A stretch of DNA of 6,941 nucleotides, taken from a virus. Taxonomy: Duplodnaviria; Heunggongvirae; Uroviricota; Caudoviricetes. The position numbers were made by a program. This document shows positions 1 to 3,000 of the stretch, in pieces (position 1 is the stretch's first letter; each line of letters begins with the position of its first letter). Location: the IMG/VR virus record IMGVR_UViG_2695420889_000005, positions 1 to 6,941 of that record. One strand, given 5' to 3'.

Positions 1-3000
1 GGAACTGCGCGGCGTAGTCGAAACTCCCCATTCTGATTGCAAAACAAACGGAAGTGCGAAGTTCACCTGCGATCTTCCGGTTTTTGGCGGTGTCAGGAAC
101 ACCGAGGTTTTCTCTGACACGTTTGCCGTTATAGTGAAACCATATGCGGATTGATCCGCCATGGTTTTCAACGCCTGTCGGGTATGATGCGTTACTCATT
201 AAACCTCCCAGACGTCCAGGAGCATTAACAGGTTAACCGGAACTTGCATTTTTGGCACCTGGTTGTTTCTGGTTTTCGATCCAGCGCATAATTTCTTCGA
301 TGTTGTACAGACATTCACTGTAATGCCCCGGATCGCCTTCTACAGCGTAATGGCGGTATTCTTTTCCCTGCATCCATGACTTTCTTCTGGCCCGCTCGAT
401 GGTGCCAGGCTTGAGCCCTGTTGATGCAATGAGGACTCTCTCCGTACACCATTTGCTCGGGGTTATCTGATAGATGATTGTCTGCATGCCAAGCTCCTAA
501 AACGTTTATCCGCGGCAGTGGCACCACACTTCAAACATTCGTCTCACAATTTCGCGACAGTAGAAACCGTCAACATCTCGCGTCAGGTCATAGCGACTGC
601 CATAACGCTGGCGTACCCATAGTTCAAATGCTTTATTCACTCTTCACTTCCTTTTCATGGCGCGTAATTTTTTCAGGTGAGCTTCCTGCTCTGTTTCTGC
701 CAGTATTTGTCGGTATTCCTGGTGATCAATATGTTCAAACTGGTTGTTGAATTCACTGATGCGTACTCGACCGGAGTGTCCGTCCATGCGTCGAAAGAAC
801 ACTGAGTGCTCAGTGCTGCGAGTAATCACCACAGGGTATCCGGCTCTGTCCGTGTATATCTGACCACGTTGAATCAGAGCGAACATTCCTTTATCCCCAG
901 CGGAAAAGCGAATACAGAATAAATGCCACCGCTATTGCAACTCCAACTGCGGTGAATGCTTCAGGCCAATTCATCATTTCACCTCCTGCGGCGGTTCTGG
1001 TAGCTGCATCCAGTGGGTTACCTCTTTGAGATACAGGTCTTCGCCATCACCGTCATCCCAAGTGGGCTTGCCATCATTAAACCAGTCGCCATATACGCCG
1101 ACCTGAGTGTTGGGGATGTTTGGTGGGTAGTTGTTTTTAAAGTCAGCTGCTAACACATAGCATTGTCGCTCTCCCATTTCAGGCATTCGCTCACTACAGC
1201 TTATCCAACCATCCGGAGTTGCCGGATAGTTGCCATTCACAAGGTCAGCTCGAACATATAGCGTGTCATCATGGTGTTGATTGTGGCTGCACCACGTTAA
1301 TTCGCTTAACTCGCCATCTTCTGGCCATACTCCAGCCGTTTGCAGCCAGATATGGGCTGGCGCATCTTGGCAAGGTGTATTAACTGGCAACTTGTAAGTT
1401 TGGCTTACAGGTTCTGCACTATCAGCCTTGCGGCGCTCCTGTAGCTCGCGCAGAGCCGCTACAACATAATGGCTATTGTGCTGGTCAGCCCACAGAATGA
1501 GCCGAATCAACGTTGCATTTGAAACGTATTCGTCTGTTAGTTTGCTATTGGTAAAAGTGGTCATAGCTATTTCACCTTAATCTCAACATTTCGCAGCTTT
1601 AGCTCTACTGGCAGGTCTGACTTTCCTGTTAATGCTAATGCGAGATTTTCTGGAGTAATGAGAACAGTTATTGTTTTCCCCCTCGCCAGACGAATAATCA
1701 TGCGTATCTCGCTATCGTCACATGCTCCTGGTCGAACAATTGAGATTTGTCCGTTCATCTCACTCTCCTTTGATGCGAATGCCAGCGGCGCGCTCGGCTT
1801 CACTTTGTTCCCAAAACCACTTGTGAAGCGCCATAAGCTTTTCGTCAATCGGTGCATATTTGCGATTAAAGTAGGCCTGAGCATCTTTCTCAGATTCGTC
1901 CGGTAATTCGCCAGGGCCAAACAGTGTGTTATAAATCCATGCTAGTCCGCTCTTAGCGTCGCCAGTTGCCTGCCATTCGATAATGGCAGCCTGCATGACC
2001 AGAATGTTTTTCCCGATTAATAGGTCCAGTTCTTTGTACCGGTTGCGGATGTATGCATTCTCGCTTTGTAATTTTGCGTTGCGCTTTTCTGAGGCTTCAA
2101 GTAACGCCTGCTTATCGCGTAGAGCTTCTTCCAGTTCAGCAACATGGCATTCACTATCAATAAGGTTGTTCTCTGCTGCTTCAAGCTCAACACGCAGCTT
2201 CCCAACCGTAAGCGCAATCTCCTCGTTCTCCTGGTCGCGGCGTTTGATGTATTGCTGGTTTCTTTCCCGTTCATCCAGCAGTGCCAAGACGGTAGCCGGA
2301 TTGGCTGCGGCGATGAATTCAGCATTGGCCTGCTGTTCCATTTGGAAATCTTCATCGAAACCGCTTTCAGGATGCGCTCCTTCAATTCTGCAAATGGGAA
2401 TATATCCAGCAGCCTCGCGATGAATTAGTGCATCATCATCATCAAATCGGCCCTCTCCATATTCGAGCGACCACTCGCCACACGTTGCTTTTTCTGCCTT
2501 TTCACGCAGTGCCTGATAGTTGATCTCGCTCATTTTTCTCTTCACTCCGGTATACAAGGATTACTACGCCCCCTCTGCTAATTGCGCGAGCTGGATCCCC
2601 TGGTTCCATGCCGTCAATCCCGAAGGCTTCGAAAAATGCATCCATTGCCTTCTGGCGTTGATCCTGCTTACGGCGTTTATTCCATTTTTTCATGAACAAC
2701 AGTGACAGCCATCGTCCGCTGCAGAACATGATGTAGAAATAACCAAGGAGCGCCAGACCGACATTAAGAGCCGTATCTATGGTTAGTTGTGAGTCAGTCG
2801 CCATCAGACTTTCTTACCTGTTTAAGTAACTGGTTGAACATAACGCTCAGGGGATTGTTGTATCCAAACGGCAGATTGTTTACGCGATACAGAATCATTT
2901 TGTTTTTTTCACCAGTTCGTACAATTAACCCATTCCACAGTAACCGTGATAATTCATTACTGATAGAAACTCCGCTTCTTCCAAGTGCGAGGGATATATC

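What the first reader, a model, noticed from the sequence alone, without database searches (positions are those of the whole stretch)
891..977. Unannotated 28-aa hydrophobic peptide translationally coupled to the DUF551 gene
A short ORF missed by the ORF track has a consensus AGGAGG SD, an ATG overlapping the upstream stop codon (ATGA), and encodes a peptide that is essentially one transmembrane helix (AFTAVGVAIAVAFILYSLF) with a C-terminal RWG. It fits precisely into the 87-nt gap between two genes. Small single-helix peptides in prophage early operons can act as membrane-active toxins, host-killing or exclusion factors, or regulators of membrane proteins.
Basis: seen in the sequence. Interest (0 to 1): 0.5.

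Follow-up and report, generated by a model that had tools for sequence, protein, structure and literature searches.

The report
Hidden 27-residue phage membrane microprotein gene
The short reading frame is a real, unannotated and strongly conserved gene for a one-helix membrane peptide carried by many E. coli, Shigella and Salmonella phages (about 29% of complete E. coli genomes), but what the peptide does is still unknown.

Summary
On the minus strand, 977..891 encodes MMNWPEAFTAVGVAIAVAFILYSLFRWG. Its ATG overlaps the DUF551 stop (ATGA), AGGAGG lies upstream, and the DUF4222 gene starts 4 nt after its stop. GenBank, RefSeq and PGAP do not annotate it.

An ORF this size is common by chance; the comparative evidence makes it real.
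- Homologues (48-100% aa identity; consensus MTWPEAFTTVGIAMAVALVVYSICRWG) occur in 92 phage records (933W, VT1/VT2-Sakai, virulent Av-05), 181 phage-plasmids, over 450 viral contigs and 1,554 of 5,426 complete E. coli genomes.
- They follow at least six unrelated upstream genes and many different downstream sequences. Homology ends at the stop codon, and the stop/start overlap is kept in 133 of 147 contexts.
- Substitutions concentrate at third codon positions (33/24/108; omega about 0.2-0.5).
- In a sample anchored only on the last 20 nt, 114 of 119 copies keep an intact frame.
- Distant relatives with the same WP[ED]AF..G motif occur in phage-like contigs of 29-65% GC.

No Pfam, NCBIfam, PHROG, PADLOC, PDB or Rfam match, and no paper found. 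Best reading: a translationally coupled early-operon cassette encoding a single-pass inner-membrane microprotein. Its target and effect are inferred only. The family-conserved start is the second ATG (27 aa).

The parts
891..977 (-). Small ORF: 28 codons plus TAA, MMNWPEAFTAVGVAIAVAFILYSLFRWG. The family-conserved start is at 974, which gives 27 aa.
   Evidence: homologues
972..974 (-). Second in-frame ATG. It aligns with the single ATG (or GTG) of all other family members and sits 7 nt after the SD.
974..976 (-). TGA stop of the DUF551 gene. It overlaps both candidate starts (ATGA and TGATG).
   Evidence: overlap kept in 133 of 147 distinct contexts
982..987 (-). AGGAGG Shine-Dalgarno sequence, lying inside the last codons of the DUF551 gene (..Q-E-V..).
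   Evidence: GGAGG or AGGAG within -16..-4 in 128 of 147 contexts and a weaker purine core in 16 more
954..968 (-). Codons for the W-P-E-A-F motif at the N-terminal membrane interface. W, P and A are invariant even in distant homologues.
903..959 (-). Predicted transmembrane helix AFTAVGVAIAVAFILYSLF. It contains the invariant Gly and a G-xxx-A spacing.
894..902 (-). Codons for the C-terminal R-W-G. R and W are invariant in the enterobacterial family. TGGGGA may also serve as the SD for the next gene.
974..1564 (-). Upstream DUF551 gene (196 aa). Its termination delivers ribosomes to the small ORF.
644..886 (-). Downstream DUF4222 gene (80 aa). Its ATG lies 4 nt after the small ORF's stop.

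Best explanation
This is a genuine protein-coding gene for a 27(-28)-residue microprotein of an undescribed family (signature M-x-W-P-[ED]-A-F-x-x-V-G-x-A-x-A-x-A-x-x-x-[YW]-S-x-C/F-R-W-G). It sits in the leftward early operon (the non-essential 'ea' / exo-xis-type region next to xis-int) of a lambdoid prophage.

Shown here:
- The SD plus ORF behaves as a small cassette that recombines between phages independently of its neighbours.
- It always lands with its start overlapping the stop of whatever gene precedes it.
- Its amino-acid sequence is under purifying selection.

Inferred:
- Ribosomes finishing the upstream gene re-initiate at the ATG, helped by the SD. The peptide would then be made in step with early-left genes after infection or induction and stay silent in the repressed prophage.
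- The peptide inserts into the inner membrane as one helix. Trp3 and Trp26 would sit at the two interfaces, with the Arg-containing C-terminus in the cytoplasm (positive-inside rule).
- It acts by packing its helix against a membrane protein, most likely a host one. The reasons are the invariant Gly/Ala positions, the invariant WP[ED]A cap, the absence of any constant phage partner, and the presence of relatives in phages of very different hosts. It would be a small modulator or inhibitor rather than a non-specific membrane poison.

The target and the phenotype are unknown.
For: Distribution.
- tblastn finds 92 phage records at 48-100% aa identity, including 933W, VT1- and VT2-Sakai, ArgO145 and the virulent Avunavirus Av-05.
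- It is also in 181 plasmids, mostly 80-130-kb non-mobilizable replicons of E. coli, Salmonella and Klebsiella; the two inspected carry phage-type genes.
- More than 450 IMG/VR contigs carry it.
- 1,554 of 5,426 complete E. coli genomes carry it, with up to 7 copies each.

Gene structure kept across mosaic contexts.
- In every annotated locus fetched, the ATG overlaps the stop of the upstream gene, although both neighbours differ.
- Over 147 distinct contexts, 133 have the overlap and 144 have an SD-like purine core.
- Upstream genes fall into at least 6 unrelated families; five of them have no Pfam domain.
- Homology stops exactly at the stop codon, which varies between TAA and TGA. It is followed by at least 10 different sequences, including terminator-like hairpins.
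- Two contigs use GTG behind GAGGAGGGGG at the same position.

Selection.
- 42 unique coding sequences give 165 changes on a minimum spanning tree, distributed 33/24/108 by codon position. That is 99 synonymous and 66 non-synonymous, omega about 0.22, binomial p=7e-22. More than 20 different nucleotide sequences encode the identical peptide.
- In a sample anchored only on the 3'-terminal 20 nt, 109 of 119 copies are intact with ATG. Two use GTG, 3 have in-frame 6-nt deletions, 2 have lost the stop, and 3 are disrupted.
- Codons 2-20 of that sample give omega about 0.5, p=6e-5.

Strand and frame.
- The antisense frame that shares third positions is also open in the close family. It has no start codon before 952 in the window.
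- It carries stops in the distant homologues, whereas the sense frame stays open and conserved.

Wider family. A profile search of 1.84 billion representatives gives 70 hits. They include small proteins with the same WP[ED]AF..VG.A.A.A...[YW]...[RK] pattern from phage-like contigs of 29%, 47%, 57% and 65% GC.

Membrane helix. Kyte-Doolittle 2.28; AF2 single helix over residues 3-27, pLDDT 88.9.

Not an RNA element. No Rfam family matches and the fold z-score is 0.10.
Against: - There is no direct evidence of translation, membrane insertion or any phenotype.
- The codon-position signal alone does not separate the sense frame from the mirrored antisense frame: 11 discordant changes each way. The choice of frame rests on the start/SD/stop architecture and on a few distant homologues with borderline E-values (1e-3 to 1e-6).
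- The retrieval by peptide pattern is biased towards intact copies. The less biased sample gives a weaker omega of about 0.5.
- A few lineages carry a broken copy: TAG at codon 3 in L009, L013 and L116, and a 1-nt deletion in L010, L153 and L181. The gene is therefore dispensable.
- A test for a conserved versus a variable helix face was not significant (p=0.45). The 'specific helix packing' step has no statistical support beyond the invariant W, P, A and G positions.
- Metagenomic hosts of the distant homologues are unknown.
Confidence: 0.6

Rival explanations
1. Membrane-damaging toxin or host-killing peptide. The peptide would oligomerise in the inner membrane and dissipate the membrane potential during lytic growth, in the manner of type I toxins (TisB, Hok, DinQ) or small holin-like peptides.
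For: Its size and composition resemble type I toxins: 27 aa and one helix. It has small-residue spacings (G11xxxA15, A13xxxA17) and a weak sub-threshold Pfam hit to a glycine-zipper region (DUF883_C, E=0.04-0.07). It sits in a repressed operon, so toxicity would be tolerated in lysogens. Independent knock-outs exist in a few lineages. In 933W-type phages it lies about 150 nt upstream of the hokW/sokW locus.
Against: No antitoxin RNA was found: nothing in Rfam, and no promoter-like site on the opposite strand near 800-1000. It has a strong SD and is coupled to ordinary early genes, the opposite of the tight translational control of type I toxins. It carries a single basic residue rather than a charged tail. 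It is not in a lysis cassette. About 96% of copies are intact across thousands of prophages, with up to 7 copies per genome.
Confidence: 0.15
2. Superinfection-exclusion or injection-blocking factor. This is a specific case of the best explanation: the helix sits in the inner membrane and blocks DNA entry of competing phages, as HK97 gp15, P22 SieA or T4 Imm do.
For: Small inner-membrane proteins of lambdoid phages are known to do this; HK97 gp15 is described in PMC3594210. The cassette is mobile among competing lambdoid/Stx phages, phage-plasmids and a virulent phage. It has no constant phage partner.
Against: It has no promoter of its own and lies in the repressor-controlled early-left operon, so it should be silent in lysogens, where exclusion normally pays. 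There is no similarity to YebO/gp15, SieA, Imm or any PADLOC model. Genomes often carry several copies in different prophages, which is odd for a factor that excludes relatives.
Confidence: 0.12
3. Detachable membrane anchor or partner of the upstream protein. The peptide would tether the Ea22-like, DUF551 or other early protein made just before it to the membrane.
For: There is tight stop/start overlap with the upstream gene in 133 of 147 contexts. A natural in-frame fusion exists: a 143-aa protein with a faint Ead_Ea22 match carrying the peptide as its C-terminal tail. It is found on 6 contigs, with the three loci shown coming from three samples, and was created by a 1-nt insertion at the junction.
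Against: The upstream proteins belong to at least six unrelated families, so one peptide would need to recognise all of them. Fusions are rare, with 1-6 contigs each. DUF551 genes occur without the peptide. The distant homologues have yet other neighbours.
Confidence: 0.07
4. The ORF is translated only as a coupling or anti-polarity spacer. It would keep ribosomes on the mRNA and hand them to the next gene, and the peptide itself would have no function.
For: In the window the next gene starts 4 nt after the stop, and its likely SD (TGGGGA) is formed by the last two codons. The genes form a chain of near-contiguous reading frames.
Against: In 104 of 147 contexts no ORF of at least 40 aa starts within 40 nt downstream, and several contexts end in terminator-like hairpins. 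The amino-acid sequence is conserved through synonymous change. It is also conserved across 29-65% GC. A mere spacer would not require this.
Confidence: 0.04
5. Not a gene. It could be a chance ORF in a conserved recombination linker, an antisense-strand ORF, or a structured RNA.
For: ORFs of this size are frequent by chance. The antisense frame with coincident third positions is open in 40 of 42 close variants and shows the same synonymous bias. Conserved linker sequences at module joints are known in lambdoid phages (own knowledge).
Against: Substitutions show three-base periodicity. The start codon, SD and stop position are conserved, with TAA/TGA and ATG/GTG swaps. The antisense frame has no start in the window and has stops in the distant homologues. 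No Rfam hit was found and the RNA fold is no better than shuffles.
Confidence: 0.02

Closest known systems
Bacterial and phage small single-pass membrane proteins that act by binding larger membrane proteins (for example KdpF, MgtS, MgtR, AcrZ, CydX; own knowledge)
   Same: Length of 25-50 aa. One hydrophobic helix with interfacial aromatic residues and a single basic residue. Routinely missed by annotation because they fall below gene-caller length cut-offs.
   Different: No sequence relationship. The only hit is KdpF TIGR02115 at E=0.024 and 14.7 bits, against a cut-off of 26.85. This one is phage-borne, sits in an early lytic operon, and has no known partner.
HK97 gp15 / YebO-like moron-encoded superinfection exclusion protein (PMC3594210)
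   Same: A small inner-membrane protein of a lambdoid phage, spread horizontally as a compact cassette.
   Different: gp15 is a moron with its own promoter and terminator in the tail operon and is expressed from the prophage. This ORF has no promoter of its own, is coupled to early-left genes, and shows no similarity to YebO at E up to 10.
Type I toxin peptides (TisB, DinQ, ShoB, Hok; hokW/sokW of 933W)
   Same: A hydrophobic peptide of about 27 aa forming one helix, found in prophage regions.
   Different: No antisense RNA. It has a strong SD and translational coupling instead of sequestered translation, and no polybasic tail. No Rfam or Pfam match.
Exo-xis / 'ea' region genes of lambda and Stx phages (ea22, ea8.5, orf60a, orf61, orf63; PMC3824215, PMC10834534)
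   Same: The same genomic neighbourhood and expected expression class: early, non-essential, highly mosaic genes that influence the lysis-lysogeny decision. The neighbours are Ea22-like and DUF551 proteins.
   Different: None of the described exo-xis genes is this ORF, and all of them are soluble proteins. The papers read here do not mention a small transmembrane ORF.
Overlapping stop/start gene pairs translated by termination-reinitiation (Huber et al. 2019, cited in PMC11188072)
   Same: An ATGA (or TGATG) overlap with an SD inside the 3' end of the upstream gene.
   Different: Here the downstream cistron is a mobile 27-codon cassette that re-creates the overlap behind unrelated genes.

Membership tests
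WP[ED]AF...RWG phage microprotein family (defined here) | M-x-W-P-[ED]-A-[FI] cap, invariant Gly at position 11, Ala at 15 and 17, aromatic at 21, Arg or Lys at 25; total length about 27 aa | tested here: met
   The window peptide has all of these positions.
WP[ED]AF...RWG phage microprotein family (defined here) | Start codon overlapping the stop of the preceding gene, with an SD 5-10 nt upstream | tested here: met
   ATGA and TGATG overlap at 977..972, and AGGAGG at 987..982. This is the family norm.
Type I toxin-antitoxin (Hok/Sok, TisB/IstR type) | Small hydrophobic membrane peptide | tested here: met
Type I toxin-antitoxin (Hok/Sok, TisB/IstR type) | Cis- or trans-encoded antisense RNA antitoxin, with translation of the toxin held off by mRNA structure | tested here: not met
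   No Rfam sRNA in 500-1500. No promoter-like site on the + strand near the ORF. The mRNA fold is no stronger than shuffles. The SD lies in an ordinary coupled arrangement.
Type I toxin-antitoxin (Hok/Sok, TisB/IstR type) | Toxicity on expression | not testable with these tools
   Needs an expression experiment.
Moron / HK97 gp15-YebO exclusion proteins | Own promoter and terminator; expressed from the repressed prophage | tested here: not met
   The ORF start lies inside the upstream gene, and no promoter-like site was found upstream on the - strand between 977 and 4146. Terminator-like hairpins follow it only in some other contexts.
Moron / HK97 gp15-YebO exclusion proteins | Sequence similarity to the YebO family | tested here: not met
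   A Pfam scan at E up to 10 lists no YebO family.
Holins | Location in a lysis cassette next to an endolysin; match to a holin family | tested here: not met
   It lies between DUF551 and DUF4222, next to xis/int. No holin Pfam or PHROG hit.
DUF551 (the name NCBI gives some partial copies of this peptide) | Match to PF04448 | tested here: not met
   The peptide has no DUF551 hit. Entries such as P0002, P0010 and P0019, named 'DUF551 domain-containing protein, partial', are the small-ORF frame. The name is a carry-over from the neighbouring gene.
KdpF (TIGR02115) | Score above the curated cut-off of 26.85 bits | tested here: not met
   14.7 bits, E=0.024, for one family member only.
Termination-reinitiation coupled cistron | Stop/start overlap of 1 or 4 nt with an upstream SD | tested here: met
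Termination-reinitiation coupled cistron | Translation of the downstream cistron depends on translation of the upstream one | not testable with these tools
   Needs a premature stop in the DUF551 gene plus a reporter fusion.

The most novel reading that the evidence does not exclude
The WP[ED]AF microprotein would be an ancient, widely distributed phage effector. Its invariant N-terminal cap and Gly/Ala helix would bind a universally conserved bacterial inner-membrane machine, such as a component of division, secretion, proteolysis or respiration. That would explain why the same 27-residue design persists in enterobacterial lambdoid phages, phage-plasmids, a virulent myovirus-type phage and metagenomic phages of 29-65% GC, including a contig related to megaphages. 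If so, it is a new class of phage-host interaction hidden below annotation cut-offs in the best-studied Stx phages.
Probability: 0.2. Interest if true: 0.75.

Novelty: new member of a known kind. Interest (0 to 1): 0.5.

Why it matters
The gene is present but unannotated in reference Shiga-toxin phages (933W, VT1-Sakai, VT2-Sakai, BP-4795) and in about 29% of complete E. coli genomes. It lies in the early 'exo-xis/ea' region, which is known to influence prophage induction and hence toxin release.

It adds a membrane component to a region so far thought to encode soluble proteins. It gives a concrete, short, easily synthesised and easily mutated target for functional tests.

It also shows that length cut-offs of 30 codons hide a conserved phage gene family. 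What public protein databases hold instead are artefactual versions: N-extended, stop-lost, repeat-expanded or misnamed.

Tried and rejected
- The search for homologous proteins refuses queries under 40 aa. I worked round this by concatenating two family members.
- A test for a conserved versus a variable helix face (variability moment at 100 degrees per residue) was not significant (p=0.45). I make no claim of a defined interaction face.
- The codon-position argument alone cannot choose between the sense frame and the mirrored antisense frame. This was resolved by start/stop architecture and distant homologues.
- RNA-element reading: no Rfam hit, fold z=0.10.
- Programmed frameshift fusing DUF551 to the helix: rejected. 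No shared slippery site exists, the ORF has its own ATG or GTG and SD behind six unrelated genes, and DUF551 occurs without it.
- K-12 CPS-53 (yfdS is DUF551): no copy there. The rest of K-12 was not scanned.
- tblastn with a distant homologue (P0089) and with a neighbour gene of L225 against isolated phages found nothing, so hosts of the distant relatives remain unknown. A neighbour gene of L228 matches only uncultured 460-595-kb phages.
- Literature: no paper holds the peptide sequence. It is absent from the held supplements of Huecker 2017, Fesenko 2024, Sberro 2018 and MetaRibo-Seq 2020 and from Weaver 2019.
- The Rosetta-stone lead (fusion proteins P0054 and P0055) is real but rare.
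Full report
**1. What is in the window.**
The finding lies on the minus strand.
- The ORF runs 977..891 and encodes MMNWPEAFTAVGVAIAVAFILYSLFRWG, followed by TAA.
- The upstream gene (974..1564, 196 aa) is a DUF551 protein (PF04448, E=3.4e-20). The downstream gene (886..644, 80 aa) is DUF4222 (PF13973, E=1.4e-16).
- The DUF551 stop TGA (976..974) overlaps the first ATG as ATGA and a second in-frame ATG (974..972) as TGATG.
- AGGAGG lies at 987..982, which is 4 nt and 7 nt before the two ATGs.
- The DUF4222 ATG follows the TAA after 4 nt.

The whole left part of the window is a leftward early operon that ends at xis (233..487) and int. 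Further right lie a cI-like repressor (5081..5836, minus strand) and a cro-like gene (5882..6172, plus strand).

Positions 600-1600 are 99.8% identical to Stx1 phage BP-4795 and to several E. coli chromosomes. In the original GenBank record, in RefSeq and in a PGAP-annotated chromosome, the 87-nt interval carries no feature.

On its own, an ORF of this size is not remarkable: 38 ORFs of at least 20 aa are listed in the first 2 kb.

**2. Is the ORF conserved as an ORF?**
tblastn with the peptide finds 92 phage records with full-length matches at 48-100% identity. I fetched eleven annotated loci.
- In every one the match begins 3 nt before the end of the annotated upstream gene. The ATGA overlap is thus kept although both neighbours differ.
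- The upstream gene varies: DUF551 proteins, a 114-aa protein next to an HNH endonuclease gene, the 933W p77-type protein, an 'EaA'-labelled protein of the virulent Avunavirus Av-05, and others.
- What follows also varies: DUF4222, the hokW/sokW locus of 933W, a toxin-antitoxin pair on the other strand, or nothing.
- The encoded peptides are MTWPEAFANVGTVMAVVLVVYSICRWR (933W), MTWPEAFTTVGVVMAVAFAVYSVCRWG (Av-05), MTWPEAFTTVGIAMAVALVVYSICRWG (ArgO145), MTWPDAFAIVGVAMSIALIVFAICRWG (WGPS2) and MSWPDAIVTLGMVFAAAFVVYSICRWG (PhiR12).
- All other members have a single ATG, which aligns with the second ATG of the window. The likely product here is therefore 27 aa.
- Only one record annotates anything in the interval: a 36-aa frameshifted reading in vB_EcoS-689R5, which has a 1-nt deletion.

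**3. Breadth.**
- One genome per species across GTDB gave only Escherichia and Shigella loci, plus two tiny contigs in Acinetobacter and Xanthomonas assemblies that look like contamination.
- The protein database adds Salmonella and E. albertii entries.
- tblastn against plasmids finds 181 records, 174 of them non-mobilizable and the listed ones mostly 80-130 kb, from E. coli, Salmonella and Klebsiella. In the two inspected (neighbours include Ea22-like and DUF551 genes and, in one, a DNA polymerase III theta gene) the same stop/start overlap is present and the interval is again unannotated.
- blastn of the 87 nt hits 1,554 of 5,426 complete E. coli genomes (29%), at 2,836 places and up to 7 per genome.

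**4. Architecture over many contexts.**
Across 147 distinct contexts (unique +/-300 nt):
- The upstream stop overlaps the conserved ATG in 109 (ATGA). In 24 it lies 2 nt before it (the BP-4795 type, with the extra ATG).
- GGAGG or AGGAG lies within -16..-4 in 128 contexts, and a weaker purine core in 16 more.
- The upstream protein tails fall into a DUF551 type (about 70), a '...NGLISVEDILR' type (about 55), a 933W p77 type (10), a phi467 type (5), an Av-05 type (2), a type preceding a GTG start (2), and a few others. Representatives of the five non-DUF551 types have no Pfam domain.
- Downstream, homology ends at the stop codon, which is TAA or TGA. It gives way to at least ten unrelated sequences, several of them GC-rich hairpins followed by T runs.
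- In 104 of 147 contexts no ORF of at least 40 aa starts within 40 nt.
- The last 12-15 nt before the ATG (ggaggtgaatcaATG) are shared by several otherwise unrelated upstream genes. The mobile unit is therefore SD plus ORF.
- Conversely, a P22-like Salmonella phage has the same DUF551 tail, including AGGAGG, and no small ORF behind it. DUF551 and the peptide are thus separable. In DUF551 contexts the SD is a by-product of the ...PQEV codons.

**5. Selection.**
- The 42 unique 81-nt coding sequences from the first 100 loci include more than 20 that encode the identical consensus peptide.
- On a minimum spanning tree, 165 changes fall 33/24/108 on codon positions 1/2/3. That is 99 synonymous and 66 non-synonymous against 20 synonymous and 61 non-synonymous sites, so omega is about 0.22, p=7e-22. 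Pairwise pN/pS is 0.28.
- That set was retrieved by peptide patterns, so I drew a second sample by an exact 20-nt degenerate pattern covering only codons 21-27 and looked at the untouched 5' part.
- Of 119 usable loci, 109 have an intact 27-codon ORF with ATG and 2 have GTG behind GAGGAGGGGG. Three have in-frame 6-nt deletions and 2 have lost the stop. Two have a 1-nt deletion at codon 2 and 1 has TAG at codon 3.
- Codons 2-20 of this sample give 59 synonymous and 78 non-synonymous changes, omega about 0.5, p=6e-5. This is weaker, as expected for near-identical sequences, but in the same direction.

**6. A caveat and how it was resolved.**
The antisense frame whose third positions coincide with those of the sense frame is open in 40 of 42 close variants. 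It shows the same synonymous excess, and changes synonymous in one frame only are 11 against 11. Periodicity alone therefore does not say which strand codes. Three things decide it:
- The sense frame has the conserved ATG or GTG, SD and stop.
- In the window the antisense frame has no ATG, GTG or TTG before 952, so it could cover only the first eight sense codons.
- In distant homologues the antisense frame contains stops, while the sense frame stays open and conserved.

**7. A wider family.**
A profile of the family searched against 1.84 billion cluster representatives returned 70 proteins at E of 1e-3 or better.
- Many are artefactual long versions of the enterobacterial peptide.
- Others are clearly different sequences with the same design. 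Examples are MNITNWPEAFTYIGCAFAIAIIFYSMFRWG...DMTWPEAFAQVGCSLAVALGVWAFCRHFFGK...QIHWPDAFAMVGVAFAFALIVWAVARSND and ...PMQWPEAISNIGIAFAFAFSVVGVIYVIFKW.
- W3, P4, A6 and G11 are invariant over the 21 aligned sequences. A17 is nearly so. Position 21 is Tyr or Trp in nearly all aligned sequences and position 25 is Arg or Lys.
- Their contigs are arrays of short co-directional genes without Pfam hits. GC content is 65%, 29%, 57% and 47%.
- A kinase-like neighbour on the 29% GC contig matches only uncultured phages of 460-595 kb.
- Many of these proteins have a Met two residues before the Trp. Their N-terminal extensions may exist only because gene callers need about 30 codons.
- E-values for this outer group are modest (1e-3 to 1e-6), so I treat the extension as probable, not proven.

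**8. Comparison with what is known.**
- The peptides match nothing significant in Pfam, NCBIfam, PHROGs or PADLOC at E up to 10. The best hits are a glycine-zipper region (E=0.04), KdpF (E=0.024, 14.7 bits against a cut-off of 26.85) and two unnamed PHROGs (E above 0.01). There is also no PDB sequence match.
- The distant members match nothing either.
- No paper in the library contains the sequence. It is absent from the held supplements of four small-protein surveys and from the K-12 small-protein paper.
- Public protein databases hold only versions of about 30 aa or more. These are N-terminal extensions in the same frame, stop-lost variants (one on 62 contigs), in-frame AMAMAM repeat expansions, a 45-nt duplication, and partial entries wrongly named 'DUF551 domain-containing protein'.
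- Papers on the exo-xis region describe Ea22 variants with DUF551 C-terminal domains, but no transmembrane ORF.

**9. How it most likely works.**
Shown: a conserved coding cassette with SD and start overlapping the preceding stop, and a peptide predicted as a single hydrophobic helix (Kyte-Doolittle 2.28; AF2 helix 3-27, pLDDT 88.9).

Inferred from established knowledge:
- Translation occurs by termination-reinitiation aided by the SD. The peptide would therefore be made with the early-left genes after infection or induction and not in the repressed lysogen. No promoter-like site lies upstream on the minus strand until 4146.
- The helix inserts with Trp3 and Trp26 at the two interfaces, 23 residues or about 34 Å apart. 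The Arg-bearing C-terminus would be cytoplasmic by the positive-inside rule.

The mode of action is the weakest step.
- I favour binding to a membrane protein. Several facts argue for a specific contact rather than bulk hydrophobicity: the invariant W-P-[ED]-A cap; the invariant Gly with Ala at i+4 and i+6; the lack of a constant phage neighbour; and persistence across phages of very different hosts.
- A helical-face conservation test was not significant.
- Rival readings cannot be excluded: toxin, exclusion factor, or anchor for the upstream protein. The last is suggested by a recurrent natural fusion to an Ea22-like protein created by a 1-nt insertion.
- Dispensability is shown by occasional knock-outs: TAG at codon 3 in three different sequence backgrounds, and one 1-nt deletion lineage.

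**10. Verdict.**
It is an undescribed family of a known kind, the phage-encoded single-pass membrane microproteins.
- It is common: present in 29% of complete E. coli genomes and in the reference Stx phages.
- It is unannotated in the reference records inspected because it is shorter than gene-caller cut-offs.
- Its function is unknown.

I put about 0.9 on 'real, selected coding gene', about 0.8 on 'membrane-inserted helix', and about 0.3 on 'acts by binding a host membrane protein'. The stated confidence of 0.6 is for the explanation as a whole.

Noticed in passing
window 891-977, plus strand, frame with starts at positions congruent to 1 mod 3 (for example 952..1029): The antisense frame whose third codon positions coincide with those of the small ORF is open in 40 of 42 close variants. 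It shows the same synonymous excess, a mirror effect that could mislead dN/dS-based ORF calling. It has no start codon before 952 in the window and contains stops in distant homologues.
   Followed up: yes
L009 (phiSTEC1589-Stx1c), L013 (Shigella phage POCJ13), L116 (IMG/VR contig): codon 3 of the small ORF: TGG to TAG at the same Trp codon occurs in three quite different sequence backgrounds. L013 has also lost the invariant Gly, so it looks like a decaying pseudogene. Trp3 is one of only two codons in the 5' part that can become a stop in one step, so the recurrence may be trivial.
   Followed up: partly
proteins P0034, P0037-P0039, P0041-P0043, P0001: The transmembrane segment undergoes in-frame expansions of a 6-nt unit (AMAV becomes AMAMAV, AMAMAMAV or AVAVAV). 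One variant has a 45-nt tandem duplication. These variants are the only reason the family appears at all in databases with a cut-off near 30 aa.
   Followed up: partly
L232-L234 1501-1932; junction at L233 1830-1850: In a lineage found on 6 contigs (the three loci shown come from three samples), a 1-nt insertion fuses a 143-aa protein with a faint Ead_Ea22 match in frame to the peptide. The result is a tail-anchored version, still followed 4 nt later by a DUF4222 gene. A 206-aa fusion (P0055) also exists.
   Followed up: partly
NCBI entries behind P0002, P0010, P0018, P0019, P0030: Partial proteins at contig ends that are really the small-ORF frame are named 'DUF551 domain-containing protein, partial', although they contain no DUF551 sequence. 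This is an annotation carry-over from the neighbouring gene.
   Followed up: yes
L004 (phage 933W) 1201-1650: In 933W-type Stx2 phages the small ORF ends about 150 nt upstream of the annotated sokW/mokW/hokW type I toxin locus. The same downstream sequence recurs in about 20 other contexts. Whether the two membrane peptides are functionally linked is unknown.
   Followed up: no
window 506-640 (-) and 644-886 (-): A 44-aa GTG-initiated ORF (annotated as hypothetical ORF3 in BP-4795) starts 3 nt after the DUF4222 stop. DUF551, the small ORF, DUF4222 and this ORF therefore form a chain of reading frames separated by -4 to +4 nt, just upstream of xis.
   Followed up: no
window 3000-6941: Only the left part of the window matches BP-4795; identity over 600-1600 is 99.8%. 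In place of BP-4795's exo/bet/gam the window has other ORFs, a 235-aa two-HTH protein (4224..4931, -), a cI-like repressor with a peptidase-type C-terminus (5081..5836, -), a cro-like gene (5882..6172, +) and a gene at 6169..6816 (+) that probably corresponds to the PGAP-annotated Rha family regulator. No complete E. coli genome covers 80% or more of the window in one place.
   Followed up: partly
L228 (29% GC metagenomic contig) 811-4093: A distant homologue (MNITNWPEAFTYIGCAFAIAIIFYSMFRWG) overlaps the preceding gene by 14 nt. It lies downstream of PP2C-like and protein-kinase-like genes whose only relatives among deposited phages are uncultured 460-595-kb phages.
   Followed up: partly
L231 (Salmonella phage SE16) 1080-1200: A P22-like phage has a DUF551 gene whose last 435 nt or so are 85% identical in DNA to the window's and which ends in the same ...PEPPQEVK codons with AGGAGG. 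It has no small ORF behind it; homology to the window stops at the DUF551 stop codon.
   Followed up: yes
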